Part shown: one piece after another, positions 2,856-20,534 of the stretch
Numbering within the stretch: position 1 is the stretch's first letter
How the letters are laid out: the number at the start of each line of letters is the position of its first letter
Source of the DNA: a virus
Taxonomy: Duplodnaviria > Heunggongvirae > Uroviricota > Caudoviricetes
Strand: one strand, 5' to 3'
Virus record (IMG/VR): IMGVR_UViG_2718218127_000002
Coordinates: 1 to 20,534 of that record
DNA length: 20,534 bases
Translations under genes and position numbers: made by a program
Notes under the pieces: model-generated
What the model was told of the DNA's origin: nothing
Database searches by the model: none
What the model saw: only the letters and a program-made list of their open reading frames with translations

Positions 2856-3074
2856 TCAAAGAGAGAGCGCCACCTGTCCTGATTTCATTGGATGCGGCTG
2901 AACCGGATTTGACTCTTTTGGCGTTGCAATCGAACGAACAAAAGTTTCATGGGTAACAAAAGTATGGCTGCAGTTAATGTTCTGGCACTGGTTGTAACGC
3001 TCTTTGGTCAATGAAGATACCTGAAAACTGCTGCGAGTATGGGCGGCACTTCCACACAGTGGGCAAATCATCAT
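2856..3074 (-). CDS. ogr: Ogr/Delta-family zinc-finger late-gene transcriptional activator
   Basis: 72 aa from ATG at 3074 with GGGAGA about 9 nt upstream; CPLCGSAAH...CQNINCSHTF matches the C2C2 zinc-finger pattern of P2 Ogr (CPLCQHAAH...CQNVNCSATF from memory). The longer 83-aa track ORF adds an N-terminal extension without an SD. Confidence 0.85.
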   Translation of the reverse strand: MMICPLCGSAAHTRSSFQVSSLTKERYNQCQNINCSHTFVTHETFVRSIATPKESNPVQPHPMKSGQVALSL

Positions 3075-3164
3075 TTTTCGAGTTCTCCCCATTTTTGCTA
3101 AATTCACAATAATGATACCGTATTATTCCATTTTGCAAACTTAAAAGCTCTCCATTGCGAAGAA

Positions 3165-4265
3165 TCATTCCATTTCGAAATCATCAATCCTCACTTCAAG
3201 CTCCAGACTGGTCGTAAAACCGTTATCCGGGCTGACGGTATGTGTCAGAGTCGTAATGGTCCATTCCGCATCATCTATCGGCTGTTTAAAGCCACTGACC
3301 TTCACGGGCATTTCCGTGTAGAGATCTGCCCGCCCTTCCGCCAGTTGTAGCGAGAATGACGCAACGCCGCGTTGCAGGCGTTCCCACTGCATTTTCGCCG
3401 CTCGTTCGGCGTTGCTCCGGTTGGCATAAGTGCGATTAAGTACCAGCACGTTTTCATCCGTACCCACCAGGTAATCGCCCTGCTTCGCTTCCGGCTCTTT
3501 CTTCTGCTTCTTAGTCCTGCGCTTACGCTTCACCGTGGTGCTTTCTTTCTTCGCGGGTTCGCGGGTATGCAACCAACTGGCAATTACGCCCGTATAGGCT
3601 CCGCGATCTGCCAGGGTAAAGCGGTGACTGTCGCCGTCCTTACGTGTGATAGTGATCACCGGTAGTGGTTTACCGCTGGCGCTTTTACCCTGTCCCTGCC
3701 GGATGAATAACAGATTGCCATTTTTCACCGACGCAATAGCACCGTACTGGCGCGCCAGCCGCATCAGAAAACTGCCGTCACTCTCATTGGTCTGGTCTAT
3801 ATGTTCCACGGGTTTATCTGACAGGTCTTTACCCAGTGCCATCTTCAGTTTGTGCCGCACAGCTATTTCCTTCACCACTTCCCCGACAGTGGTCTTGTGC
3901 CACGACTTTTCACGGCGGGTATTCAGCGTTTCCCGAAAATCAGCACTTCGCGCCCGGATAGTCAGGCGGTCCGGTGCGCCAGTGTGTTCAATCTCGTCCA
4001 CCGTGAATGCCCCTTTCGGGAAAAGCGGCTGCCCCTTCCAGCCCAGCGCCAGCGTAATGACCGCACCACGGCGCGGCAGCGCTATTTTTCCATCGGCGTC
4101 GTCCAGCTCCAGATCAAGCTGGTCCGCTTCAAAGCCCCGATTATCCGTCAGCGTCAGACTCATCAGGCGGTTATCCAGCACAGTGGTGATATCCCTGCCC
4201 TCAATACTGATGCTGAATGCGGGAGTTTTGTTGCCTTTGTTAAGCAGTTCAGAGCTGAAATTCAC
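3165..4265 (-). CDS. D: P2 gpD-like tail protein (late control gene D)
   Basis: 366-aa ORF immediately upstream of ogr and downstream of U, size and position as P2 D; GTG start directly after U stop; lysine-rich segment KRKRRTKKQKKEPE typical of this family. Confidence 0.8.
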   Translation of the reverse strand: MNFSSELLNKGNKTPAFSISIEGRDITTVLDNRLMSLTLTDNRGFEADQLDLELDDADGKIALPRRGAVITLALGWKGQPLFPKGAFTVDEIEHTGAPDRLTIRARSADFRETLNTRREKSWHKTTVGEVVKEIAVRHKLKMALGKDLSDKPVEHIDQTNESDGSFLMRLARQYGAIASVKNGNLLFIRQGQGKSASGKPLPVITITRKDGDSHRFTLADRGAYTGVIASWLHTREPAKKESTTVKRKRRTKKQKKEPEAKQGDYLVGTDENVLVLNRTYANRSNAERAAKMQWERLQRGVASFSLQLAEGRADLYTEMPVKVSGFKQPIDDAEWTITTLTHTVSPDNGFTTSLELEVRIDDFEME

Positions 4266-4747
4266 GACAGCAGCCCTCCCACCGTTTTACTGATATCGCT
4301 TAAGGCAGACGTTGCCGTGTCCTGCAGATTATTCAGTTGCGCACTGAGATCACCGAACATATCGGACAATGATTCATCCACCCTTTTGAGCGACAGGGTG
4401 AACTCAATCCGGCGCGGCATACCGTCGCGGAAAAACTCCGTTTTAGTCTGATTCAGTCCCTCAATCACATACATGCCATAAATCGTGCCGCTGCCTTCAA
4501 TCAGGGGCCATGCTTTCCCCTGTTCTGCCATCTGCTCCAGTGCCAGCAACGACAGCCTGCCACCTGTTATCTCCGGCATAAGAACACCGGAAAGCGTCAG
4601 CATGTCGTTGTCCGGTCCCAGAAACTGCGTGGACGGACGTCGGTTTACCCGGCTGTTTGCCGCATGTCGCCAGCTGCGTTGATACTGCAGCTCCTGATAC
4701 GGCACGGTGCGCAGCATAAACACGTACAATCCCAGCACCATCATCAT
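4262..4747 (-). CDS. U: P2 gpU-like tail protein
   Basis: 161-aa ORF between T and D, ATGA start/stop overlap with T; size and position as P2 U. Confidence 0.8.
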   Translation of the reverse strand: MMMVLGLYVFMLRTVPYQELQYQRSWRHAANSRVNRRPSTQFLGPDNDMLTLSGVLMPEITGGRLSLLALEQMAEQGKAWPLIEGSGTIYGMYVIEGLNQTKTEFFRDGMPRRIEFTLSLKRVDESLSDMFGDLSAQLNNLQDTATSALSDISKTVGGLLS

Positions 4748-7700
4748 GCGTCGTATCCCCCCTGATCGCTGTAGTTACTCCTGGCTTTTGCCTTCAGCCT
4801 GCGTTCACGTTCATCAAGCTGGCGGGCCACCTCCCGCGCAATATCCTGCGCACTTTGTCCTGGCTGCGTCTGAATGATGATCTGCATCGGTGCCTCAATC
4901 CGTTGAACGGGCGGCACAGTGGCTGCACGACTCACCATCGCTTCGCCGCCTTTCGCGGGAAGTGCCAAAGGGTGCAACGGTGGAAGCTCTGCAGGCGCGG
5001 CAGCAACGCCCATCATTCCGGCAACAACGGCAGCCAGTGCAGCTGTATTTCTCCGGCTGGTCACATTTGCCGGGCCGTTAACAATTTCCGGCCCGTTTTC
5101 ACCGACGATGCCAAACTGCCCGCGCGGGATATAGCCGCCGCTGTCATACATCCCCGCAAAGCCATATCCCCATGATGGAAAACCACCCGATGGCATCATC
5201 ACTTTACCGTCTGCATTCACCGTCGCAGGTTGCTGACGCGTCACGCTTTCCGGCAGTTTTGCCTTTGCGGCCTCTTTACTGACAATGCCGAGCTTCTCCA
5301 GCAACCAGGAAACGCCGGATTTCAGGGAGTCCAGCGGATGCATGACCATATTCAGCCCTTCCGCCAGTGCCTCCCCGAATCGCCGCCCCATTGCCGCTGC
5401 GCTCTGCAGTTCGGCAGAGGTCGACTTAACGGGCGTCAGCAGATCAGTAAACCAGCCCCACAGCGCCTGCACTTTGTCGCCAATCCACTGGAACACGGGC
5501 TTAAGCGGTTCGAACGCTGCACTGATGGGACCTGCCGCCGCTTTGAATCCTTCCACCACGCCACCGAGAAATGCGGTGATGGGTTGCCAGTATTTCCAGA
5601 CAACCAGCGCCACGCCCGCCAGTGCAGTAACCACAAGACCTATCGGACTGAGCAGAGCACCTAACAGACCAGATATGGCATACAGGGCAACGCGCAGCAT
5701 CGCCAGTGGACCAGATGCCAGTACTCGCAGCACCGTGCCTGCGGCGGCCAGTCCACCGCGCAGTACCGCCAGAGGATTCATAAACATCACAGCAACAGCA
5801 CGTAAACCGGATAATCCAGACCGCAAAAGTGCAACCGGCGCACCTGCTACAGTTTTCAGGACATTTCCCGTCAGTGATGCCGTGCGGCGCAAAGACGACA
5901 ACGGCGCAGTAAGTAAACCTGCGGCGTTGCCCGATGAAGCAAGCCCGCGTCGCAGCAGTGCCAGTGGTGCGCCAGCCAGCCAGGACAACGCGCTGCTGGT
6001 TCGAGTTACTGCTGCCGTAACGGAAGATAACGTTTTGATACCCAACACAGAGAATCCCAGACGGATCACTGCCAGCGGCCCCAGCACTGCAGCCAGCGCC
6101 ACCGCTAAGGTGCCGAGGCCGACGGTAACCGCAGCCACAACAGCCGATGCTTTCATCAGTGTGCCTGTCAGTTCCGGGTTAGCTTCCACCCAGCGGCGCA
6201 ACGCTCCCGTGATGCTTTTCACCGTGTACAGAATATCCATCAGCGGCTGGCGCAGCGTTTCGCCCAGGCTGCTGAAGGTGTTCTGCGCTCCGGTTTTGAC
6301 CAGCAACCACTGCGCAGAAAGTGAATCCTTGTTAATGTCGGATTCTTTCTGCATGGAGCCAAGCGCATCATTGCCCGCTGTCAGTTTTAACTGACGCTGC
6401 AGTTCCGGCAGGTTGTTTGCCAGTTTCGCCGCGTCATCGCCAAACTCTTTACCAAACAACATAGTCATGGCAGACAGGCGCTTGTCCTGCGGCAGCGCGT
6501 TTACCTTCTCCAGCACGCGCTGGATGGTTCCCATCGCATCCTTCGTCATCTGCTTTTCAATCACTTCAGGATTGAGTTTCAGCAGATTCATCCCTTCAAA
6601 GAAACTCTTGCTTTGCATGGTGGCAATGGACAATTCACGCACCATCGCGTTTGCTGCACTGGCTGCAACCTCTGGCGCAGCGCCCAGTGTCAGGAAGGTG
6701 GAACCCAGCGCCGCCGCTTTACGATAATCCAGACGGTCAGCCACACCGCCCAGACGTTGCATCACATCAATGATGTCTGCCCCTTTCGACATGGCGTTAT
6801 CATCCAGATAGTTCAGCGCATCACCGAGCTGTTCAATATTGCGGGTGGGGATTTTGTAGAGCTGGGCGATTTTCCCCAGACTTTCTGACAGTTCATCCGC
6901 TGGCAGCTCAAAGGCTGTTGCCGCCTTTGCTGCCGTACTGGCGAAGGCCAGCAGGTCACGTTTCTGATCTTCCCAGCTGTCGTCAGGGTTTGCGACGTTC
7001 ATGCGCGCACCACCTTCAACCAGTGCAGCGAAGTCCACCGCACCGTTTTCCATCGGCAACTGTTCGCTGGCAGCCTTGATGGCATCCTGCATTTCATAAA
7101 AACGTGCAGTGCGGTTGCCATTATCGTCACGCAGACCATTGACCTGCTTTGCCACACCTTTCATGGCATCTTCCATGCTGGTATAGCTTTTTACTGCCGC
7201 CATCACTGGCGCACCCATTGCCAGCCCTGCAGCCGTGGTGGTGGCTCCGGCACCTGCAATACGATCACGCACCTCCAGCGAACGGGCATAACTGGCACGC
7301 GCTGCATTCATCCTGCGCTGAGCTTCCCCCAGTCGCTTCAGCCGCGCCTCCTGTTTCGAAAGTTCCTGGTTATAACGTGATGTTTCACGGGCTAAACGGG
7401 CAGTTGCTCCCGCATCGTCTTTCGCAGAAATTCCCGCCCGGTACAGTTCAGCACGCACAAGCGCCGTCTGCTGCTGCAGCTTTTTCTGGCGTTCTTCCAG
7501 GCGCTGAACAGCCAGCCGTTGACGGCCCAGAGCAACAACCTGACGTTGCGAAGGCGGCCCCATCGCTCCCAGTTCCTGACTGAGCAAATTTGCACGCTGG
7601 CGGGCATAGTTCAGCCTGTCGCCTAATTTCTGATTTTCTGCCTGCAGCTTTCGGAAGCTGTCCAGACTGCTCCCGGCCTGATCAAGCTGCTTTATTGCAT

Positions 7701-7821
7701 CGCGGGATTTTTTGACAGCAGCAGCCAGTTCTCTTGAACTGGCCTGCGCAGATCGAAATGGGCGGGTGAGCTTGTCAACCGCATTAAGAATGACCTGCAG
7801 ACGCAGGTTGTTATCACTCAT
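4744..7821 (-). CDS. T: Tail tape-measure protein (P2 gpT-like)
   Basis: 1025-aa ORF; N-terminal coiled-coil-like region rich in Q/R/A/L, central hydrophobic Ala/Leu/Gly-rich repeat block, position upstream of U and D; ATG start at 7821. Confidence 0.85.
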   Translation of the reverse strand: MSDNNLRLQVILNAVDKLTRPFRSAQASSRELAAAVKKSRDAIKQLDQAGSSLDSFRKLQAENQKLGDRLNYARQRANLLSQELGAMGPPSQRQVVALGRQRLAVQRLEERQKKLQQQTALVRAELYRAGISAKDDAGATARLARETSRYNQELSKQEARLKRLGEAQRRMNAARASYARSLEVRDRIAGAGATTTAAGLAMGAPVMAAVKSYTSMEDAMKGVAKQVNGLRDDNGNRTARFYEMQDAIKAASEQLPMENGAVDFAALVEGGARMNVANPDDSWEDQKRDLLAFASTAAKAATAFELPADELSESLGKIAQLYKIPTRNIEQLGDALNYLDDNAMSKGADIIDVMQRLGGVADRLDYRKAAALGSTFLTLGAAPEVAASAANAMVRELSIATMQSKSFFEGMNLLKLNPEVIEKQMTKDAMGTIQRVLEKVNALPQDKRLSAMTMLFGKEFGDDAAKLANNLPELQRQLKLTAGNDALGSMQKESDINKDSLSAQWLLVKTGAQNTFSSLGETLRQPLMDILYTVKSITGALRRWVEANPELTGTLMKASAVVAAVTVGLGTLAVALAAVLGPLAVIRLGFSVLGIKTLSSVTAAVTRTSSALSWLAGAPLALLRRGLASSGNAAGLLTAPLSSLRRTASLTGNVLKTVAGAPVALLRSGLSGLRAVAVMFMNPLAVLRGGLAAAGTVLRVLASGPLAMLRVALYAISGLLGALLSPIGLVVTALAGVALVVWKYWQPITAFLGGVVEGFKAAAGPISAAFEPLKPVFQWIGDKVQALWGWFTDLLTPVKSTSAELQSAAAMGRRFGEALAEGLNMVMHPLDSLKSGVSWLLEKLGIVSKEAAKAKLPESVTRQQPATVNADGKVMMPSGGFPSWGYGFAGMYDSGGYIPRGQFGIVGENGPEIVNGPANVTSRRNTAALAAVVAGMMGVAAAPAELPPLHPLALPAKGGEAMVSRAATVPPVQRIEAPMQIIIQTQPGQSAQDIAREVARQLDERERRLKAKARSNYSDQGGYDA

Positions 7822-7879
7822 CGTTGGCCCCGCTTCTCTGAATCGCTTTATACCGCCATTCCAGCACTTCGGTCAGGCG

Positions 7880-8497
7880 TGCATGGTGGACAGCTGGGAA
7901 GTCTGGACCGACTTTCATGCACTGGCCCTGCGCCCGTTTGGCTGGCGCGAAGTATGGATCGGTTATGACCCCGCAAAAGGTACTCAGAACGGCGACAGTG
8001 CCGGATGCGTGGTGGTGGCACCGCCAGCCGTACCGGGCGGTAAATTCCGCATTCTTGAGCGTCACCAGTGGCGCGGGATGGACTTCCGCGCTCAGGCTGA
8101 CGCCATCAAAAAACTGACCGAACAGTACAACGTGACTTATATCGGTATCGACTCAACCGGCGTTGGTCACGGGGTTTACGAGAACGTGAAAGCATTCTTT
8201 CCTGCCGTCCGGGAGTTTGTCTACAACCCCAACGTTAAAAACGCCCTGGTGCTCAAGGCCTACGACATTATCAGCCACCGCCGTCTGGAGTTTGACGCCG
8301 GACACACCGACATTGCGCAGTCATTCATGGCAATCCGTCGCGCCACCACCGCCAGCGGCAACCGCCCGACCTATGAAGCCAGCCGCAGCGAAGAAGCCAG
8401 CCATGCCGATCTGGCCTGGGCAACAATGCACGCACTGTTTAACGAACCGCTGCAAGGCGAGTCCGCCAATACCAGCAATATTGTGGAGATTTTTTGA
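7880..8497 (+). pseudogene. P: 5'-truncated terminase large (ATPase/nuclease) subunit gene, P2 gpP-like, C-terminal nuclease domain only
   Basis: Open frame encodes only about 200-260 aa with RNaseH-like nuclease-domain acidic motifs (WIGYDPAKG, YIGIDSTGVG, SHADLAWA) and an ATGA overlap with the Q start, as in P2 P-Q; the N-terminal ATPase domain is absent and the frame runs into the divergent T gene start. The 5' boundary is approximate. Confidence 0.7.
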
Positions 8498-9522
8498 TGG
8501 GAAAGAGTAAGAAGAACCGCGCTGCGGCGACGAAACAGATCCAGCTTAAAAGTCAAACTACAGCCGAAGCATTCAGCTTCGGCGATCCCGTTCCTGTTCT
8601 GGACCGCCGAGAACTGCTGGACTATGTGGAATGCGTACAGACAGATCGCTGGTATGAGCCGCCAGTAAGCTTTGACGGACTGGCGCGCACCTTCCGCGCC
8701 GCCGTGCATCACAGTTCACCAATTGCGGTGAAATGCAACATTCTGACCAGTACCTACATCCCTCACCCGCTGCTCAGCCAGCAGGCTTTTTCACGTTTTG
8801 TGCAGGACTATCTGGTATTTGGTAACGCCTACCTGGAGAAACGCACGAACCGCTTCGGTGAAGTTATCGCCCTTGAGCCTGCTCTGGCAAAATACACCCG
8901 ACGCGGGTTAGACCTGGATACCTACTGGTTTGTGCAATACGGTATGACAACCCAGCCGTATCAGTTCACGAAAGGCAGCATTTTTCATCTGATGGAACCG
9001 GACATTAACCAGGAGATCTACGGCCTGCCCGGCTATCTTTCTGCCATTCCGTCCGCCCTGCTCAATGAGTCCGCCACGCTGTTCCGCCGCAAGTATTACA
9101 TTAACGGTAGTCATGCAGGCTTCATCATGTACATGACCGATGCTGCGCAGAACCAGGAGGACGTGAACAACCTCCGCAATGCAATGAAAAGTGCCAAAGG
9201 TCCGGGTAACTTCCGCAACCTGTTTATGTACTCGCCTAACGGCAAAAAGGACGGGCTTCAGATTATCCCGTTGTCAGAGGTGGCGGCGAAGGATGAGTTT
9301 TTGAATATCAAGAACGTGAGCCGCGATGACATGATGGCTGCGCACCGCGTGCCGCCGCAAATGATGGGGATTATGCCTAATAATGTTGGAGGGTTTGGGG
9401 ATGTGGAGAAGGCCGCAAATGTGTTTGTGCGCAATGAACTTTTGCCATTACAGAAACGCATGGAGGAGTTAAACCATTGGCTGGGTGAGAAAGTTATTGC
9501 ATTTTCATCCTATTGTTTATGA
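8497..9522 (+). CDS. Q: Portal protein (P2 gpQ-like)
   Basis: 341 aa from ATG at 8497 (GGAG 8 nt upstream, overlaps P stop); size and position match P2 Q downstream of P. Confidence 0.8.
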   Translation: MGKSKKNRAAATKQIQLKSQTTAEAFSFGDPVPVLDRRELLDYVECVQTDRWYEPPVSFDGLARTFRAAVHHSSPIAVKCNILTSTYIPHPLLSQQAFSRFVQDYLVFGNAYLEKRTNRFGEVIALEPALAKYTRRGLDLDTYWFVQYGMTTQPYQFTKGSIFHLMEPDINQEIYGLPGYLSAIPSALLNESATLFRRKYYINGSHAGFIMYMTDAAQNQEDVNNLRNAMKSAKGPGNFRNLFMYSPNGKKDGLQIIPLSEVAAKDEFLNIKNVSRDDMMAAHRVPPQMMGIMPNNVGGFGDVEKAANVFVRNELLPLQKRMEELNHWLGEKVIAFSSYCL

Positions 9523-9531
9523 GATATAAAT

Positions 9532-9573
9532 TGGTGGCCTTAATTATATAGCCACCATATTGCTTTTTATTTT
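9532..9573. terminator. Putative terminator between convergent Q and TIR gene
   Basis: tggtggc / gccacca inverted repeat with AT-rich loop followed by tattgctttttatttt on the + strand. Confidence 0.4.
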
Positions 9574-10379
9574 ACTCTAAAGGCATCATCGGCTTTATGT
9601 GGTATAGGAGCATAACGCTCGGTACTTACTCGATGTAGCACCGCAAATATATTCAAAGGTGAACCATCCTTTAACCTAAGAGAAACATACATTGGCATCG
9701 TTGGTGTTAACCCCCGATTTAGGCCAACAGTGGCACCACTTACTTTCATACCATTTTCTAAAGATGCATTTTCAATAAACCCCTGAGTGAATGTGCTTTC
9801 TCCATTGACCATAACAACAACATCATCATGCTTAATTGTATTATCCATAATCATCATAAAATCAGCAATTGGTTCTAAAAAATCCATTGCTGATAATTTC
9901 ACTATCTTACCCCCATCACCATCCTTAATATCATAGGAGAGGTTTGAATACTTCTCAGGATTAGGAATATACGTATTTTGTTGATTAATGACATCTATAA
10001 TTTGTCTTATTGCCACATCGATCCCATACGAATAAAGATCAATATATAGCGTTTGAGTAAGCAGAGCAGGCAAGGATATATTCTGGCAACGTATTGGTAT
10101 AAATTTACACTTCCCGGACGATGCCTTAATTAAAGCATTTTGCCATTCCATTTTTACCATGTTACTTGCCAAACTATTTTCTGTGACAAAAAAGAAAAAG
10201 AACGATACATTCTCCATTCCTAAATTCATCTTGTCAATAATACCCTCTCCGGGTTGGATAGACCAAGAATCGTAGAATACGTTATCACGCCCATAAACAT
10301 CTGCTAGTTTTTCCGCTATAACACTTACAAACCTTTTGTCACGGTGATTATGACTTAGAAAGATCATAGCATGCCCCAT
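9567..10379 (-). CDS. TIR-domain protein with uncharacterised C-terminal domain (candidate defence protein)
   Basis: N-terminal 140 aa show the bacterial TIR pattern: IFLSHNHRDKRFV (betaA/alphaA), NVFYDSWSIQPGEGI, VSFFFFFVTENSLASNMVKMEWQNAL (hydrophobic strand, then Ser-x5-Glu where the catalytic Glu is expected). Start is either ATG 10379 or ATG 10367. AT-rich relative to the phage backbone. Confidence 0.6.
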   Translation of the reverse strand: MGHAMIFLSHNHRDKRFVSVIAEKLADVYGRDNVFYDSWSIQPGEGIIDKMNLGMENVSFFFFFVTENSLASNMVKMEWQNALIKASSGKCKFIPIRCQNISLPALLTQTLYIDLYSYGIDVAIRQIIDVINQQNTYIPNPEKYSNLSYDIKDGDGGKIVKLSAMDFLEPIADFMMIMDNTIKHDDVVVMVNGESTFTQGFIENASLENGMKVSGATVGLNRGLTPTMPMYVSLRLKDGSPLNIFAVLHRVSTERYAPIPHKADDAFRVK

Positions 10380-10448
10380 TAGAAATTAATGTGTAAGATC
10401 TGCGTAGAGAGTCACCGACAGTGTACCAATAATAATCTTCTGCGCGCA

Positions 10449-10467
10449 ATCGTATCCCCGCCACGCC
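10449..10467 (-). other. cos-like cohesive-end sequence (putative packaging site remnant)
   Basis: Minus-strand sequence GGCGTGGCGGGGATACGAT; the first 13 nt are identical to the 19-nt cohesive end I recall for phage 186 (GGCGTGGCGGGGAAAGCAT; P2 GGCGAGGCGGGGAAAGCAC), 16/19 overall; lies in a GC-richer segment between two AT-rich genes. Confidence 0.45.
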
Positions 10468-10667
10468 TGCCCACTTTATGTAGTGGTTTTCATGCACCTG
10501 CATGACATAAGCAAAAGCACGCCAGTTCTGGCTGGCATCAGCGAAAACGATCGTCATACTATCATGCGATCTCATGCGCCATATGAAGTTTTCCTGACAC
10601 AGCCTTGGGTTGGGATAACACCTAACTCAGGAAGATTTTTTGTGTGTTTGTAACCCACACCTAGAGT

Positions 10668-11837
10668 TTACCAATCCATGTTTGCGGCATTATCCATCTC
10701 ACGAGTTAAGTAATTAACAAATAAGTCCATATTCCTTTCTGATTTCATCGCCTCCGCATAGGTTCCATTAGTTACGTAAGATAGTATTAAAGGACATCCA
10801 GATTCAATATAAATTTTTGCTGGGGACAGTTCTCCCTGCCACAAATTTTCAAGAAAATCGTTAATTAATTGCATTGCTTCAGGTGCCAAAAAATGCACAC
10901 CATTTCCAAACTTGAAACGTTCTTTATTTTCTCGATGAGGCAGCAATAGTGGCACAGCCCCTACACTTGAGTGAAATTCCAATGCTTGCCCATCCTTACC
11001 GAAGGCGCCATGGGCTACAAAATTACGCACCTGTTTTCTGAGTATAAGTAAACGATCATAGAACAATTTTAGACTGGAAGAGTTAATATCAATGGCTAAT
11101 TTGAATTTCTCCCCCCATTCTTTTCCAACTTTATCAGCCACATCATTCCCATTTTTTATCTCACCCTTCAAGATTGCAATAAGAATGAAAACATGCTCGG
11201 TCCAATTGAAAAATGACTCAATTGCAGACGTTGCTAACCACATAGCCTCTCTTCGGAGTTCAATTATCTTATTTGATTGTTCAAAAGTGGATTGTAACAG
11301 GCTGAAAAAATTATCAGACTTAAACTCACTATCAACTTCCAGTTTAGACTCTTGGCCAGCAGCAACTTCATCAAGCTTCTGTTTATATAGCTCTAAAAAA
11401 TAGCAAAACCTATCATAAAGAGAATTAGCATTGTTATTAACATTTAGATTTGAAGTCTTTGCTGCATTGTCTGCAAGCGAGTCAAAAAAATTCGTAGCAG
11501 CTTTAACCCCTGCGCAAATATGTCTCAAAACAGTTTTAGCTTGCTCTATATCATCATCACTCTTGATAAATATATCTAAACCAAGTTTACGATGTTCTAT
11601 AATTACGACAGTCCCATCAATCCGGACTGGGATAGAAAAAGAAATCTTCTCATCAACCCCACGATTTTTAAATTTCAGTAAATCTACCAAAAGAAAATAA
11701 ACGAGATAATACGGAGGTAATGAGTCTCCCAAACCCGAGCGCTTACCCCAAAAATATTCATCAAGCTCGGCAGACTCCATTGTCCCTATGACTCTTCGGA
11801 CGCGTTCTTCAACTTTAGCCAGATCCATTCCCCACAC
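10668..11837 (-). CDS. Hypothetical protein with HEPN-like R-N-x3-H motif (candidate abortive-infection/defence effector)
   Basis: 389-aa AT-rich ORF; motif RNFVAH at residues 271-276 (nt 11010-11027) fits the Rx4-6H HEPN signature with polar residue after Arg; no Walker A, SIR2 or other motif recognised by eye. Start is either GTG 11837 or ATG 11828. Confidence 0.45.
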   Translation of the reverse strand: MWGMDLAKVEERVRRVIGTMESAELDEYFWGKRSGLGDSLPPYYLVYFLLVDLLKFKNRGVDEKISFSIPVRIDGTVVIIEHRKLGLDIFIKSDDDIEQAKTVLRHICAGVKAATNFFDSLADNAAKTSNLNVNNNANSLYDRFCYFLELYKQKLDEVAAGQESKLEVDSEFKSDNFFSLLQSTFEQSNKIIELRREAMWLATSAIESFFNWTEHVFILIAILKGEIKNGNDVADKVGKEWGEKFKLAIDINSSSLKLFYDRLLILRKQVRNFVAHGAFGKDGQALEFHSSVGAVPLLLPHRENKERFKFGNGVHFLAPEAMQLINDFLENLWQGELSPAKIYIESGCPLILSYVTNGTYAEAMKSERNMDLFVNYLTREMDNAANMDW

Positions 11838-11998: not shown

Positions 11999-12187
11999 CT
12001 AACCGAGAAGATCCATTACACGGTTATATTCATGGGCACGAATTTTCGCCATCAACTCATCAGTCAGCTCTGAAACCCACTGCAGAGCCAGCCCCTTCTC
12101 TTCATCACTACACTCACTAGCCGCTACAAGCTTAAGAAAAAAATCAATGCGCTGGAGCTTCAAAGACTCCAAAAAATAGTCCTGCAT
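11999..12187 (-). CDS. Small hypothetical protein (62 aa)
   Basis: ATG at 12187 preceded by a strong SD (taGGAGGaaaaATG); the longer 96-aa track ORF has no SD. Located immediately downstream of A, in the position of P2 orf91. Confidence 0.5.
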   Translation of the reverse strand: MQDYFLESLKLQRIDFFLKLVAASECSDEEKGLALQWVSELTDELMAKIRAHEYNRVMDLLG

Positions 12188-12340
12188 TTTTCCTCCTATG
12201 ACACCACAAGCAATACTGTATGCATAACCACTGTTTATATTTACAGTATATAATAATCTTACTGATGTAAAACGTTTTTTTACGTTCATCAGCCTGATAT
12301 GCCTGGTATTATTAAGAGCACGAATTGTTAATCCGCGTAA

Positions 12341-17498: not shown

Positions 17499-18434
17499 AT
17501 GTCAACACATGAAATCACATTTCGCCATGTGGACGAAAAAAAGAAATCCTTAATCATGCAGAATCGCGGAGGGCAATCGGTTATAGATCGGATACTGAAA
17601 GCCTATGGTTTTTCTTCCCGACAAGCATTCTGTAATCACCTAGGTATATCGCAAAGTACAATGGCGAACAGGTATGCCCGTGACACTTTCCCTGCTGATT
17701 GGGTTGTTATCTGTAGCATGGAGACTGGAGTGCCGGTCGAGTGGTTGGCATTTGGCACTGATACCGAGAAGGGAAGCATTACAAATAATGCAGAAAAAAG
17801 TCACAACAATTGTGACAGCAAGCATCAACATCTCAATAGAGAACAAGACATCCAAAATGAGAACTCTTTTACTATTAACCAAGGTGGAAAAGCAGCAATA
17901 GAGCGAATCGTTTTGGCTTATGGATTTAAGACAAGACAAGCTTTAGCTGATCATATTGGTGTATCAAAAAGTACATTAGCCAATCGTTACATGAGAGATA
18001 CCTTTCCTGCTGACTGGATTATTCAATGCTCACTGGAAACCGGTGCTTCATTAACATGGCTAACCACTGGTAACGGGGCAATGTTTGAAAAGCCTCGAAA
18101 CGATACTATCACTATCCCATATCATAAAATAATTGATGGATCTCTTGCTCAAGAAACCTTCTTGACTTTTGACTCTAAGTTGTTAGAAGGAACCTTTCTG
18201 CAACCTTTAGCAGTATTCATTGATGAGGAAATATATATTGTAGAATCAAAATTTAATGAAGTTACTGATGGCAAGTGGCTTGTGAATATTGAAGGGAAAA
18301 TAAGTATCAAAGATTTGACTCGCATACCCGTTGGTATGGTTAAAGTTGTAGGCACTAACGCAAGTTTTGAATGCTTACTTACTGACATTATCGTTTTGGC
18401 AAAATGTAAAAGAGTTTTTACTAAAAATGTATAA
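17499..18434 (+). CDS. Immunity repressor with tandemly duplicated CI-type (phage 186 CI-like) N-terminal DNA-binding domain
   Basis: Two about 63-aa internal repeats (residues encoded at 17568-17756 and 17883-18074) share the pattern GG-x-IxRI-AYGF-RQA-HxG-S-ST-ANRY-RDTFPADW-CS-ETG-WL; divergent from cox. The region upstream of ATG 17499 in the track ORF looks non-coding. Confidence 0.6.
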   Translation: MSTHEITFRHVDEKKKSLIMQNRGGQSVIDRILKAYGFSSRQAFCNHLGISQSTMANRYARDTFPADWVVICSMETGVPVEWLAFGTDTEKGSITNNAEKSHNNCDSKHQHLNREQDIQNENSFTINQGGKAAIERIVLAYGFKTRQALADHIGVSKSTLANRYMRDTFPADWIIQCSLETGASLTWLTTGNGAMFEKPRNDTITIPYHKIIDGSLAQETFLTFDSKLLEGTFLQPLAVFIDEEIYIVESKFNEVTDGKWLVNIEGKISIKDLTRIPVGMVKVVGTNASFECLLTDIIVLAKCKRVFTKNV

Positions 18435-18445
18435 AGAGAAACATC

Positions 18446-19390
18446 ATGACTGAACCAACCAATAAAGATAGCGAAATAAAAAAACACCTATTAGAATTTC
18501 TTGATTCACAGTCTGAAAATATAGCAAAACACTTCTACTCTCATATAAAAGACTTAATAGAAGCAGGAGAGCTTTCTGAAGCTCATAATAACCTAGCGCT
18601 AATTGAAAAATACATAACTAGGCCACCGATGGATGAAGAACCCAATATAAATGAAAATAAAGCCAATAAAAGAAAAAATGTAAAATCACTTGAACCTAAT
18701 AATTATGTAGAACATATAATACAATTAGAAGAACGAAACAGCATATTAACTCTACAGTTAGAGCATTATACTCAGGATCTTAATAGAAAAAACGCAATAA
18801 TCGAAAACAACGTAAAACAAATTAATTCATTGATTAGTGAAAATAAGGAACTCCGTAGCCAAGTACAGCAACAAAGAATCGATGATAAAATCCCCACCTA
18901 TGTTAACGATGTTAAATCAGATCTTGGTAGTGATGACAAACATTTTATATTGATGTCTATTATCTGGTCTATTGCAGGGGTATTTTTTGGCTTCCTTGCA
19001 GTAGTATCTGCTTTTTTTACATTATACATGAACTTAGATTTAAAAAATCTCACTAACCTTCAGTTAATATATATCTTCACGCGAGGATTAGTTGGAATCG
19101 CCATTCTTTCATGGCTATCATATATCTGCCTTAGTAACTCAAAAAAGTACACACATGAATCGATCAGGCGAAAAGATCGTCGACATGCTTTGATGTTTGG
19201 TCAAGTTTTTTTGCAGATATACGGTTCTACAGCAACTAAAGAGGATGCAATAGAAGTCTTTAAGGATTGGAATATTTCAGGTGACTCTGCATTTTCAGGT
19301 CAGACAGAGCAACCACCGAGTTTTGCGTCATTTTTGAATACAATCAAAGACAAAGTTAAAGTAACTGGAAGTGATAAAGAAACAGATTAA
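18446..19390 (+). CDS. Hypothetical coiled-coil protein with two predicted transmembrane helices
   Basis: 314-aa AT-rich ORF 11 nt downstream of the repressor gene; heptad-like N-terminal region and two hydrophobic stretches (ILMSIIWSIAGVFFGFLAVVSAFF and GLVGIAILSWLSYICL). Confidence 0.65.
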   Translation: MTEPTNKDSEIKKHLLEFLDSQSENIAKHFYSHIKDLIEAGELSEAHNNLALIEKYITRPPMDEEPNINENKANKRKNVKSLEPNNYVEHIIQLEERNSILTLQLEHYTQDLNRKNAIIENNVKQINSLISENKELRSQVQQQRIDDKIPTYVNDVKSDLGSDDKHFILMSIIWSIAGVFFGFLAVVSAFFTLYMNLDLKNLTNLQLIYIFTRGLVGIAILSWLSYICLSNSKKYTHESIRRKDRRHALMFGQVFLQIYGSTATKEDAIEVFKDWNISGDSAFSGQTEQPPSFASFLNTIKDKVKVTGSDKETD

Positions 19391-19456
19391 TCATGAACAT
19401 GTATGCTACTAAGTAAAAAATACATTGAATACTGTTTTTATATACAGTTAAATTTA

Positions 19457-19480
19457 GCCCTCTGATATGAGGGCATTTTT
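19457..19480 (+). terminator. Hairpin plus T-run immediately upstream of int (terminator or translational control element)
   Basis: gccctc-tgatat-gagggc stem-loop followed by attttttat; the 3' arm GAGGG is also the int Shine-Dalgarno. Confidence 0.5.
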
Positions 19481-19481
19481 T

Positions 19482-20534
19482 ATGGCAGTACGAAAACTCA
19501 CCACAGGAAAATGGCTTTGCGAATGTTACCCCGCCGGACGTAGCGGACGCCGTGTGCGTAAACAATTCGCCACCAAAGGCGAAGCACTGGCCTTCGAGCG
19601 ATACACCATGGGGGAAATAGAAGCAAAACCCTGGCTGGGCGAATCAGTGGATCGTCGGACACTGAAAGATATGGTTGAGCTATGGTTCAAATTACATGGC
19701 AAATCTCTTACTGCCGGACAGCATGTCTACAACAAGCTGCTGTTGATGGTTGACGCCTTGGGAAATCCCCTTGCAACTGATCTCACCTCAAAAATGTTTG
19801 CTCACTATCGAGATAAACGCCTGACAGGCGAGATCTACTTCAGCGAGAAATGGAAGAAAGGAGCAAGCCCGGTCACCATTAACCTGGAGCAAAGCTATCT
19901 AAGTAGTGTTTTTAGCGAACTATCCCGTTTGGGCGGATGGTCGTATCCGAACCCACTGGAGAACATGCGAAAATTCACCATCGCAGAAAAAGAGATGGCA
20001 TGGCTTACCCATGAGCAGATTGTTGAATTGCTGGCTGATTGCAAACGTCAGGACCCAATTCTGGCACTGGTAGTTAAGATATGCTTAAGCACAGGCGCAC
20101 GCTGGCGTGAAGCCGTAAATCTTACCCGCTCACAGGTGACCAAATACCGAATTACCTTTGTCAGAACGAAGGGGAAGAAAAACAGAAGCATCCCTATCAG
20201 TAAAGAGCTTTACGAAGAGATCATGGCGCTCGATGGGTTCAATTTCTTCACAGACTGCTATTTTCAATTTTTATCCGTGATGGAAAAAACGTCTATCGTG
20301 CTCCCTCGCGGTCAACTCACACACGTTCTGCGCCATACGTTTGCAGCGCACTTCATGATGTCGGGTGGAAACATTCTGGCCTTACAAAAAATTCTCGGAC
20401 ACCACGATATAAAAATGACTATGCGTTACGCACATCTGGCACCGGATCATCTGGAAACGGCGCTCCGTTTCAATCCTCTGGCAACGCTGCCAAGTGGCGA
20501 CAAAGTGGCGGCAGCGGTTGGCATTACCCCGTAA
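19482..20534 (+). CDS. int: Tyrosine integrase (P2 Int-like)
   Basis: 350 aa from ATG 19482 (MAVRKLTTGKW, like the P2 Int N-terminus MAIKKLDDGRY from memory); catalytic motifs TGARWRE, HVLRHTF and MRYAHL. Confidence 0.85.
   Translation: MAVRKLTTGKWLCECYPAGRSGRRVRKQFATKGEALAFERYTMGEIEAKPWLGESVDRRTLKDMVELWFKLHGKSLTAGQHVYNKLLLMVDALGNPLATDLTSKMFAHYRDKRLTGEIYFSEKWKKGASPVTINLEQSYLSSVFSELSRLGGWSYPNPLENMRKFTIAEKEMAWLTHEQIVELLADCKRQDPILALVVKICLSTGARWREAVNLTRSQVTKYRITFVRTKGKKNRSIPISKELYEEIMALDGFNFFTDCYFQFLSVMEKTSIVLPRGQLTHVLRHTFAAHFMMSGGNILALQKILGHHDIKMTMRYAHLAPDHLETALRFNPLATLPSGDKVAAAVGITP
20495..20516. repeat. Putative att core copy (int-proximal)
   Basis: tggcgacaaagtggcggcagcg, 21/22 identical to 2834-2855; lies within the last 13 codons of int. 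Confidence 0.45.

What the first reader, a model, noticed from the sequence alone, without database searches (positions are those of the whole stretch)
18446..19390. Lysogeny-operon membrane protein between repressor and integrase: candidate superinfection-exclusion or abortive-infection gene
P2 has no gene between C and int. Here a 314-aa AT-rich ORF follows the repressor by 11 nt and is followed by a hairpin terminator before int. It has an N-terminal coiled-coil-like region (about residues 80-140), two predicted TM helices (encoded about 18941-19135) and a C-terminal soluble tail. Genes co-transcribed with the repressor in lysogens are classic locations for exclusion or defence functions, and I do not recognise it as a known family.
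Basis: inference. Interest (0 to 1): 0.6.

Follow-up and report, generated by a model that had tools for sequence, protein, structure and literature searches.

The report
Prophage membrane protein, likely anti-phage cargo
A gene wedged between the repressor and integrase of a 186-like prophage encodes an uncharacterised inner-membrane protein; its conserved two-helix membrane module is fused to immune domains in other bacteria, so it is a good but untested candidate for a phage-defence gene.

Summary
A 314-aa ORF (18446-19390, GC 0.33) starts 11 nt after a 186-type CI repressor and ends before a hairpin and int. It has a helical N-domain, a long coiled coil, a 2-TM hairpin and a cytosolic tail.

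It matches no Pfam, NCBIfam, PADLOC or PDB family. Its only match is PHROG 2628, of unknown function.

Three comparative lines favour a defence cargo gene:
- **Same slot, validated system.** Sister phages with about 98% identical Int carry PD-lambda-1/SNIPE, a validated membrane-bound defence nuclease, at this position.
- **Conserved half is a swappable module.** Residues 136-292 comprise a pre-TM helix, 2 TM helices and the motif ES..DR.HA..FG...WN. In distant relatives this module is fused to TIR and EAD11 conflict-system domains. The N-terminal half is hypervariable (about 20% against 83% identity).
- **Survival in dead prophages.** Intact copies remain in decayed prophages whose CI and int are fragments.

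My best reading is a lysogen-expressed, sensor-coupled membrane effector of the abortive-infection type, resembling SLATT in architecture but not detectably homologous to it. Classic periplasmic superinfection exclusion is less likely, because the periplasmic loop is only about 9 residues.

Nothing here is experimentally shown. I rate it a new variant of a known kind, of moderate interest.

The parts
17556..18434 (+). 186-type CI repressor (292 aa by RefSeq start; two Phage_CI_repr HTH domains + Phage_CI_C). It is the first gene of the presumed lysogenic (pL) transcript.
   Evidence: Pfam 4.6e-58 and 2.1e-26. RefSeq annotation of the 100% identical E. coli copy.
18435..18445 (+). 11-nt CI-to-X spacer (AAGAGAAACATC) with a weak purine-rich RBS. 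No terminator or promoter signal.
   Evidence: Sequence. Scan. The same ~11-15 nt spacing is seen in homologous loci L009, L012 and L020.
18446..19390 (+). Gene X: 314-aa inner-membrane protein. The whole ORF matches PHROG 2628 (unknown function).
18446..18619 (+). Residues 1-58: small three-helix N-terminal domain, hypervariable among homologues (mean pairwise identity 20%). Proposed sensor or partner-binding part.
   Evidence: AF2 helices 6-21, 28-39 and 43-58. Divergence. No similarity to EAD11 (hhalign probability 8%).
18626..18688 (+). Residues 61-81: disordered, K/N/E-rich linker.
   Evidence: pLDDT <50. 14% mean identity.
18692..18943 (+). Residues 83-166: coiled-coil helix continuous with TM1. 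Variable up to about residue 135. Residues 136-166 form the conserved pre-TM helix (L136, Q142, I145, D146, Y152, V153, V156, D164 invariant in close homologues).
18944..19138 (+). Residues 167-231: TM hairpin (TM1 167-195, ~9-residue periplasmic loop, TM2 205-231 with conserved basic R213 and W223). The predicted topology is N-in/C-in.
   Evidence: Hydropathy, and a K/R-rich stretch after TM2. AF2. Conservation.
19139..19321 (+). Residues 232-292: most conserved part (83% mean identity). Cytosolic juxtamembrane helices carry the family signature Y.HES[IL][KR]..DR.HA[IL].FG..[FY]L..YG ... F..WN[IM]...SAF.
   Evidence: Shared with the Sinorhizobium TIR-fusion protein.
19322..19387 (+). Residues 293-314: variable, low-confidence C-terminal tail.
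19431..19448 (+). LexA-box-like palindrome ACTGTTTTTATATACAGT inside a possible TTGAAT-17-TTAAAT promoter. It lies in the conserved int leader and marks the right-hand edge of the cargo.
   Evidence: 2 matches in the window against 0.01 expected. The CTGT-N8-ACAG core is kept in E. coli, Klebsiella and Dickeya relatives. The function is inferred.
19457..19481 (+). Terminator-like hairpin (6-bp stem, 5 GC) plus T-run, ending at the int ATG. The 3' arm GAGGG is the probable int Shine-Dalgarno sequence.
19482..20534 (+). Tyrosine integrase (350 aa).
   Evidence: Pfam Int_N + Phage_integrase. RefSeq annotation.

Best explanation
Gene X is an accessory ('moron') gene carried in the immunity region of a 186-like prophage.

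**Expression (inferred).** It is most likely transcribed with the CI repressor from the lysogenic promoter. That transcript would end at the hairpin in front of int.

**Protein.** The product sits in the inner membrane as a helical hairpin with both ends in the cytoplasm.
- The conserved half is residues 136-292: a pre-TM helix, 2 TM helices and a cytosolic ES..DR.HA..FG...WN motif. It behaves as an effector-type module. The same module is attached to TIR or EAD11 domains in other bacteria.
- The hypervariable N-terminal helical and coiled-coil half would sense a phage cue and/or drive oligomerisation.

**Proposed mechanism (inferred, not shown).** On infection by another phage the protein oligomerises through its coiled coil. 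The TM hairpins then permeabilise or depolarise the inner membrane, aborting the infection before progeny are made.

Functionally it resembles SLATT-type and other 2TM effectors of signalling-based immunity. It also resembles repressor-linked exclusion genes such as lambda rexB.
For: **Shown here**
- ORF, spacing, topology and fold elements.
- No promoter-like or terminator-like site between CI and X. There is a terminator-like hairpin after X.
- The slot is a swappable cargo site. KP12 and vB_EcoM-813R9 have Apl 100%, CII 94-99% and Int 98% identical to the window. They carry a 558-aa PD-lambda-1 homologue there (PADLOC E 7e-120; DUF4041 + T5orf172). Phage 4LV2017 carries yet another gene there.
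- PD-lambda-1/SNIPE is an experimentally validated inner-membrane defence nuclease (PMC13190303).
- Homologues at 37-63% identity occupy the same CI-X-int position in E. coli, Klebsiella, Dickeya, Dryocola, Brenneria and Yersinia.
- Mean pairwise identity is 20-22% in the N-terminal half and 83% in residues 232-292.
- Among 129 distant members, 18 match TIR_2, 6 match TIR, 8 match EAD11 and 6 match MgtE_N, all N-terminal to the module. The pairwise match to a Sinorhizobium TIR protein has E 1e-14 and covers TM1 to the WN motif. That gene lies next to a nucleotidyltransferase-patatin pair.
- EADs are by definition fused to effector or signalling domains of conflict systems (PMC7159879).
- X is intact where CI and int are reduced to fragments, in Enterobacter L018/L019 and Pectobacterium L016. 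The E. coli and window prophages are themselves deletion remnants.
- The family occurs in 153 of 5426 complete E. coli genomes. The SNIPE allele occurs in 165.

**From established knowledge**
- Genes co-transcribed with prophage repressors (lambda rexAB, sieB) commonly exclude other phages.
Against: - There is no experimental or transcriptomic evidence of expression or phenotype.
- No match to any PADLOC model above noise.
- The AF2 model has only moderate confidence (pLDDT 75, pTM 0.40).
- Many distant members are solitary genes in ordinary neighbourhoods rather than in defence islands.
- Pore formation is inferred from architecture and analogy alone. In the TIR fusions the membrane part could be an anchor rather than the effector.
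Confidence: 0.5

Rival explanations
1. Superinfection exclusion at the entry step. X sits in the inner membrane at or near phage injection sites. It blocks genome translocation, or recruits something that does, without killing the cell. The hypervariable N-half would bind a host channel or phage ejection protein from the cytoplasmic side.
For: - Inner-membrane location and lysogenic-operon position.
- The allelic cargo SNIPE acts during genome injection, and its variable regions bind host or phage proteins.
- Hypervariable N-half.
Against: - Only about 9 residues are periplasmic, so there is little surface to meet tape-measure or ejection proteins outside the cytoplasm.
- The conserved module recurs with TIR and EAD11 domains, which are typical of signalling or suicide effectors rather than entry blocks.
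- Relatives occur outside prophages.
Confidence: 0.17
2. Part of the phage's own lysogeny circuitry. X would be a membrane-anchored partner of CI, for example sensing envelope state to tune repressor activity, induction or excision. It would not be an anti-phage gene.
For: - Constant position about 11 nt after CI in many relatives.
- Against E. coli locus L012, nucleotide homology stops inside CI (17751) and resumes at X residue ~138 (18857). The CI C-part and the X N-half therefore diverge as one block.
Against: - Sister phages with near-identical Apl, CII and Int lack X and carry unrelated cargo instead.
- X persists intact where CI is a 67-aa fragment.
- Homologous modules occur in non-phage contexts and fused to TIR or EAD11.
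Confidence: 0.1
3. A lysogenic-conversion gene that benefits the host in a way unrelated to phages. Examples would be envelope stress tolerance, modulation of cell division or membrane organisation, or antagonism of other bacteria.
For: - AT-rich accessory gene kept in grounded prophages of successful clinical E. coli lineages.
- Coiled-coil plus membrane architecture. Some database names are 'ZapB' and 'intermediate filament family protein'.
- Weak PADLOC hits to the coiled-coil/TM part of dynamin-like LeoBC.
Against: - Those names and hits rest on coiled-coil composition.
- The domain partners of the module (TIR, EAD11) and the slot's other cargo (SNIPE) point to immunity.
Confidence: 0.15
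4. A trans-acting effector that needs a separate sensor or signal generator. The conserved cytosolic motif would receive a small-molecule signal or a partner, rather than X sensing phage by itself.
For: - TIR domains are fused to the module in 24 of 129 relatives, and EAD11 (a recruitment adaptor) in 8.
- Invariant polar residues E238, R245, H247 and N276 sit next to the membrane.
- The window's own gpA-portal hotspot encodes a TIR_2 protein at 9567-10379.
Against: - The 100% identical X in E. coli WCHEC020031 is paired with a different hotspot content (P-loop NTPase and HsdR-N protein, no TIR).
- X homologues are single cargo genes in the slot.
- X's N-domain shows no similarity to EAD11.
Confidence: 0.08

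Closest known systems
SLATT domains (SMODS- and SLOG-associating 2TM effector; Pfam SLATT_1 to SLATT_6; Burroughs et al. 2015, as cited in PMC7159879)
   Same: - A two-helix membrane hairpin with a short loop and a conserved cytosolic extension.
- Occurs as a swappable module joined to TIR and other conflict-system domains.
- Predicted pore-forming suicide effector.
- Three SLATT proteins appear among weak BFVD structure matches.
   Different: - No member of 129 scanned reaches E<=1e-3 on any SLATT model, and the query has no SLATT hit even at E<=1.
- The BFVD matches are not significant (E 0.2-0.8).
- The signature ES..DR.HA..FG...WN and the long coiled coil leading into TM1 are specific to this family.
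- Here it is a single cargo gene in a prophage immunity region, not next to a nucleotide cyclase.
SNIPE / PD-lambda-1 (Vassallo et al. 2022; PMC13190303)
   Same: - Occupies the identical cI-int slot in sister 186-like prophages.
- Single-gene, inner-membrane-anchored, with the bulk of the protein in the cytoplasm.
- Has variable regions thought to set target range.
- Similar prevalence in E. coli (165 against 153 of 5426 genomes).
   Different: - No sequence relationship.
- X has no DUF4041 and no GIY-YIG/T5orf172 nuclease, nor any other enzymatic domain.
- Its TM segment is an internal hairpin rather than an N-terminal anchor.
Lambda RexA/RexB and other repressor-linked exclusion genes (sieB, P22 sieA)
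   Same: - Expressed (here: presumably) with the repressor in the lysogen.
- Membrane protein proposed to collapse membrane potential or exclude incoming phage.
   Different: - RexB has four TM helices and needs RexA.
- No PADLOC Rex, Pif or Abi model matches X.
- X is a single gene with a large cytoplasmic coiled-coil domain.
Membrane effectors of signalling-based immunity (CBASS, Pycsar and type II Thoeris TM effectors; PADLOC 'TIR-TM')
   Same: Short TM modules coupled to TIR or nucleotide-sensing domains. 24 of 129 relatives carry an N-terminal TIR, and one matches the PADLOC TIR-TM model.
   Different: - X itself has no TIR or nucleotide-binding domain and no adjacent cyclase.
- The PADLOC hits lie on the TIR parts, not on the shared membrane module.
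Eleos LeoBC/LeoC (bacterial dynamin-like defence proteins)
   Same: Long helices flanking a membrane hairpin. There are weak PADLOC hits: LeoC E 0.011 for X, and LeoBC down to 3e-8 in 16 of 129 relatives.
   Different: - No GTPase domain.
- The hits cover the coiled coil plus TM1 only, not the conserved signature, and have low bit scores typical of compositional matches.

Membership tests
PHROG 2628 (phage protein family of unknown function) | Full-length match to the family profile | tested here: met
   E 3.8e-215, 714 bits, residues 1-314 on profile 1-314. The family carries no functional annotation.
SLATT (Pfam SLATT_1 to SLATT_6, SLATT_fungal) | Significant match to a SLATT profile | tested here: not met
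   No SLATT family listed for X at E<=1. None for the Sinorhizobium TIR fusion at E<=1. None among the 18 families hit by any of 129 members at E<=1e-3.
SLATT (Pfam SLATT_1 to SLATT_6, SLATT_fungal) | Two TM helices with a short connecting loop plus a conserved cytosolic helix | tested here: met
   TM1 167-195, loop ~196-204, TM2 205-231, conserved helices 232-282.
SLATT (Pfam SLATT_1 to SLATT_6, SLATT_fungal) | Association with nucleotide-signal generators or sensors (SMODS, SLOG, TIR) | tested here: inconclusive
   TIR fusions in 24 of 129 relatives. One relative lies beside a nucleotidyltransferase-patatin pair. There is no SMODS or SLOG next to X or its close homologues.
SLATT (Pfam SLATT_1 to SLATT_6, SLATT_fungal) | Fold similarity to SLATT models | tested here: inconclusive
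   BFVD Foldseek lists three SLATT proteins at E 0.21-0.78, TM-score 0.19-0.47. This is not significant. The AFDB library was unavailable.
PD-lambda-1 / SNIPE | DUF4041 domain plus GIY-YIG (T5orf172) nuclease behind a membrane anchor | tested here: not met
   X has none of these. The KP12 protein in the same slot has all of them.
Lambda Rex / known Abi and Sie proteins in PADLOC | Match to any PADLOC model of a known or candidate defence protein | tested here: not met
   Only LeoC at E 0.011, 13.8 bits, on the coiled coil.
Eleos LeoBC (dynamin-like) | Dynamin-type GTPase domain | tested here: not met
   No GTPase or P-loop family in Pfam for X or for the 129 relatives.
Holins | Small TM protein in a lysis cassette next to an endolysin | tested here: not met
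   X is 314 aa with a 166-residue cytoplasmic N-part, and it lies between CI and int. The only holin signal is a sub-threshold Phage_holin_3_6 hit (E 0.0043) on the Sinorhizobium relative.
Cargo of a P2/186-like prophage defence hotspot | Variable content at a fixed position between conserved core genes, with known defence systems among the alternatives | tested here: met
   X, PD-lambda-1/SNIPE and an unrelated 349-aa gene alternate between CI and int in phages with 97-98% identical Int. [quoted passage not shown]
Cargo of a P2/186-like prophage defence hotspot | Anti-phage phenotype | not testable with these tools
   Needs plating assays. No paper in the library mentions the protein accession or the PHROG.

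The most novel reading that the evidence does not exclude
X may found an unnamed, widespread family of sensor-gated 2TM membrane effectors (419 clusters at 50% identity), analogous to SLATT but independent of it.

In 186-like prophages its hypervariable N-terminal half diversifies as one recombination block with the specificity-determining part of the CI repressor. On this reading the protein recognises components of heteroimmune relatives, or of other phages, in an immunity-type-specific way. Repressor immunity and membrane-based suicide defence would then be coupled in a single exchangeable cassette.
Probability: 0.12. Interest if true: 0.7.

Novelty: new variant of a known kind. Interest (0 to 1): 0.5.

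Why it matters
**If X is a defence gene**
- It adds a compact single-gene membrane effector family to the prophage-encoded immune repertoire of E. coli, Klebsiella and other Enterobacterales.
- The family is invisible to PADLOC, Pfam and NCBIfam, and it is carried by clinically important lineages.

**What the module offers**
- Its conserved part is shared with TIR- and EAD11-fused proteins across bacteria.
- One tractable E. coli gene could therefore reveal how a whole class of 2TM effectors is gated.

**What the locus shows**
- The cI-int position of 186-like phages is a genuine cargo slot allelic with SNIPE.
- The immunity region and its cargo are exchanged together.

**If X is not a defence gene**
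- It is an ordinary lysogenic-conversion gene of unknown role.

Tried and rejected
**Family libraries.** Pfam, NCBIfam and PADLOC scans of X gave only sub-threshold hits on coiled-coil or hydrophobic stretches: DUF996, DUF2207_C, LeoC, fulvocin-related.

**Phage records.** tblastn against 50,697 phage records found no copy of X. The related Klebsiella prophage records are cut exactly at the end of CI.

**Solved structures by sequence.** The full-length profile returned coiled-coil noise only. A module-only profile (A4) returned nothing below E 0.27.

**Structure comparison.**
- Foldseek against PDB gave no E<0.1.
- BFVD gave a best hit of 7.6e-3 to an uncharacterised protein.
- AFDB50 was unavailable.

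**X N-domain as an EAD11-like adaptor.** hhalign probability 8%; rejected.

**X working with the TIR protein of the same window.** Not supported. An identical X co-occurs with a different hotspot content, and there is no similarity between the window TIR protein and the TIR-fusion relatives beyond the TIR fold.

**Database names.** 'ZapB', 'intermediate filament' and 'Crescentin rod' are coiled-coil artefacts.

**Neighbourhoods of distant relatives.** Mostly solitary genes or short contigs with little context signal.

**Species-representative genome scan.** It returned only 8 loci, too few for statistics on CI/X co-variation.

**Second word-indexed search, with the module profile.** 44 hits, all 'hypothetical'.

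**Literature.** Nothing found for the accession or the PHROG.
Full report
**1. The observation**

The ORF is real and sits where stated: 18446..19390 on the + strand, ATG start, 314 aa. The preceding ORF stops at 18434, leaving 11 nt. GC is 0.328 for the ORF and 0.291 for its first half. By comparison, GC is 0.388 for CI, 0.489 for int and 0.486 for the window.

Hydropathy gives two TM segments, residues 167-195 and 205-231. They are joined by a loop of about nine residues and followed by a K/R-rich stretch (SKKYTHESIRRKDRRH). With no signal peptide, this predicts both termini in the cytoplasm.

I built an AlphaFold2 model from a 71-sequence alignment (pLDDT 75, pTM 0.40). It shows:
- three short helices (6-58);
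- a disordered linker (61-81);
- one uninterrupted helix 83-194 that carries the coiled coil straight into TM1;
- a second long helix 204-259 (TM2 and its cytosolic continuation);
- helices 265-282 and 293-307.

Profile hits to PDB over positions 80-150 are all coiled coils. A terminator-like hairpin (19457-19474, 6-bp stem with 5 GC pairs) followed by a T-run ends at the int ATG at 19482.

- The repressor is a 186-type CI with two Phage_CI_repr domains and Phage_CI_C, and Apl/Cox-like and CII (CP76) genes diverge from it. The element is 186-like rather than P2-like in its immunity region.
- The hairpin belongs to the conserved int leader, not to the inserted gene.

**2. Not a known family, but a real and sizeable one**

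- Pfam, NCBIfam and PADLOC give nothing above threshold.
- PHROG 2628, of unknown function, matches end to end.
- The identical or near-identical gene (>=95% nucleotide identity) is in 115 of 5426 complete E. coli genomes, always chromosomal and always annotated 'hypothetical protein'.
- No INPHARED phage record contains it. The related Klebsiella prophage records are cut at the end of CI.
- A word-indexed search found 160 homologues, all in Enterobacterales and none with a meaningful name.
- A full HMM search of 1.84 billion cluster representatives found 419 clusters at E<=1e-3 and 237 at E<=1e-10.
- No paper in the library mentions the accession or the PHROG.

**3. The protein has two halves with very different evolution**

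Mean pairwise identity among 71 close homologues:

| Region (residues) | Mean pairwise identity |
|---|---|
| 1-60 | 20% |
| Linker 61-82 | 14% |
| Coiled coil 83-135 | 22% |
| Pre-TM helix 136-166 | 61% |
| TM1 167-195 | 47% |
| Loop + TM2 196-231 | 61% |
| 232-292 | 83% |
| Tail 293-314 | 28% |

The signature after TM2 is Y.HES[IL][KR]..DR.HA[IL].FG..[FY]L..YG ... F..WN[IM]...SAF. In a 129-sequence alignment of distant members, G252, F272 and W275 are invariant. E238, R245, H247, A248, F251, G260 and N276 are at least 90% conserved. A basic residue (R213 here, K in most others) is kept near the outer end of TM2.

**4. The conserved half is a module that travels with immune domains**

A tblastn hit on a Sinorhizobium plasmid is a 310-aa protein with an N-terminal TIR_2 domain. 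The same TM1-TM2-signature module follows it (BLASTP E 1e-14 over X residues 173-284). The gene lies beside a nucleotidyltransferase and a patatin-like phospholipase.

Scanning 129 distant members against Pfam gave these N-terminal domains:

| Domain | Members |
|---|---|
| TIR_2 | 18 |
| TIR | 6 |
| EAD11 | 8 |
| MgtE_N | 6 |
| HNH, DUF4062, CAP12-PCTIR TIR | 1 each |

Effector-associated domains were defined by Kaur et al. as adaptors present on a core sensor and on separately encoded effector or signalling domains (PMC7159879). An EAD11-module fusion therefore marks the module as an effector-type component.

**5. The genomic slot**

- **Sister phages.** Klebsiella phage KP12 and Escherichia phage vB_EcoM-813R9 have Apl 100%, CII 94-99% and Int 98% identical to the window, but CI only 51% identical. 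Between CI and int they carry a 558-aa protein with DUF4041 and T5orf172 that matches PADLOC PD-lambda-1 at E 7e-120.
- **What PD-lambda-1 is.** It is now called SNIPE, an experimentally characterised inner-membrane nuclease that cuts phage DNA during injection (PMC13190303).
- **A third cargo.** Phage 4LV2017 carries a third, unrelated gene there.
- **Boundary of the cargo.** Nucleotide homology with these phages resumes at 19399-19422, just after the X stop codon.
- **X homologues in the same slot.** Homologues at 37-63% identity occupy the same position, with the same short spacing after CI. They occur in prophages of E. coli, Klebsiella michiganensis, Dickeya, Dryocola, Brenneria, Yersinia and an unclassified Enterobacteriaceae isolate.
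- **Published context.** A 2026 survey lists the interval between integrase and primase as a minor defence hotspot of P2-like phages, with 8% of systems (PMC13586616). The two earlier hotspot papers did not note it.
- **Prevalence.** In E. coli, X-family alleles (153 genomes) and the SNIPE allele (165 genomes) are about equally common.

**6. Retention after prophage decay**

- In Enterobacter the gene is intact while CI is a 67-aa fragment and int is a 136-221-aa fragment.
- In Pectobacterium only a 49-residue CI remnant and a 45-residue int remnant flank it, with a KAP NTPase gene inserted nearby.
- The E. coli copy lies in a prophage with pseudogenised D and terminase genes.
- The window's own element lacks capsid and baseplate genes.

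Survival of an intact ORF in grounded prophages indicates selection on the host side.

**7. Transcription**

No promoter-like or terminator-like site lies between CI and X. Promoter-like matches in the region are fewer than in shuffled sequence. Co-transcription with CI is therefore the simplest reading, but it is inferred.

Downstream, the conserved int leader contains a LexA-box-like palindrome ACTGTTTTTATATACAGT (19431-19448). There are two such sites in the window against 0.01 expected by chance. The palindrome sits in a possible TTGAAT-17-TTAAAT promoter, followed by the hairpin whose 3' arm GAGGG is the likely int ribosome-binding site. This suggests that X is the last gene of the lysogenic transcript and that int has its own SOS-responsive control. 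That too is inference.

**8. Mechanism**

- Shown: the anatomy, the conservation pattern, the domain partners and the slot.
- Inferred: X is a lysogen-expressed, single-gene membrane effector.
- On this model, the variable cytoplasmic N-half senses an infection cue and/or bundles subunits through the coiled coil. The conserved hairpin and juxtamembrane motif then execute membrane permeabilisation, giving abortive infection.
- I put about 0.5 on an anti-phage role of this general kind, and roughly 0.35 on the pore or depolarisation mechanism specifically.

Rivals:
- **Exclusion at entry.** Plausible given SNIPE next door, but the nine-residue periplasmic loop argues against a classic periplasmic block.
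- **A role in the phage's own lysogeny circuit.** Supported only by the tight linkage to CI and by one observation: against E. coli locus L012, nucleotide homology stops inside CI at 17751 and resumes at X residue ~138. It is contradicted by sister phages that lack X.
- **A phage-unrelated host benefit.**
- **A trans-activated effector.** The window does encode a TIR protein in its gpA-portal hotspot. However, an identical X is found with a different hotspot content.

**9. Novelty and verdict**

The kind of thing is known: prophage cargo in a defence slot, and a 2TM effector-like module. The family itself is unnamed, undetected by current defence-finding resources and uncharacterised. I rate it a new variant of a known kind, with interest about 0.5. 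It is a solid, directly testable candidate rather than a surprise.

Noticed in passing
window 19431-19481: The conserved int leader has three elements in a row. First, a LexA-box-like palindrome ACTGTTTTTATATACAGT inside a possible TTGAAT-17-TTAAAT promoter. Second, a GC hairpin whose 3' arm (GAGGG) is the probable int Shine-Dalgarno. Third, T6 and the int ATG. The CTGT-N8-ACAG core is kept in the E. coli, Klebsiella and Dickeya relatives. This suggests SOS-controlled int expression and a structure that both stops read-through and masks the int RBS.
   Followed up: partly
window 11999-12289 (-) and 12230-12247: A second LexA-box-like site, ACTGTTTATATTTACAGT, lies at the 5' end of a 96-aa ORF next to gpA. 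The ORF is conserved (80-95% aa) in 66 phage records, where it is unannotated or 'hypothetical'. By position and SOS box it may be the Tum-like antirepressor of this 186-like group.
   Followed up: partly
window 9567-11837 (-): The classical gpA-portal hotspot (GC 0.39) carries two genes. One is a 270-aa TIR_2-domain protein (9567-10379; Pfam 1.3e-22, with weak PADLOC TIR-NLR and ThsB hits). The other is a 389-aa protein (10668-11837) with no Pfam, PADLOC or phage match. This may be an uncharacterised two-gene TIR defence system.
   Followed up: partly
window 2900-9522: The prophage is a deletion remnant. gpD, gpU and the tape-measure gene (3165-7821, - strand) abut a terminase C-terminal fragment and a portal gene (7712-9522, + strand). 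Capsid, baseplate and fibre genes are missing. ybjL (935-2620) flanks it. The E. coli WCHEC020031 copy is a different deletion variant.
   Followed up: partly
window 17556-18434: The CI repressor has two tandem Phage_CI_repr helix-turn-helix domains before the CI C-terminal domain (292 aa). Related prophages have one-HTH versions (187-199 aa) or two-HTH versions (312 aa).
   Followed up: no
window 17752-18856 compared with L012: Between two E. coli prophages, nucleotide homology (92.6%) stops inside CI at 17751 and resumes (85%) at 18857, which is X residue ~138. The divergent block therefore comprises the C-terminal part of CI plus the N-terminal half of X. The conserved X module may serve as the right-hand recombination arm of the immunity cassette.
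   Followed up: partly
L001 7066-8286 (E. coli WCHEC020031), equivalent to window 19438-19443: An ISKox3 (ISL3-family) element is inserted between X and int, inside the LexA-box-like palindrome. It separates int from its leader in that strain.
   Followed up: no
L008 2268-3317 (Klebsiella phage 4LV2017): A third alternative cargo gene occupies the cI-int slot. It is a 349-aa hypothetical protein with no Pfam or PADLOC match, and is another untested defence candidate.
   Followed up: no
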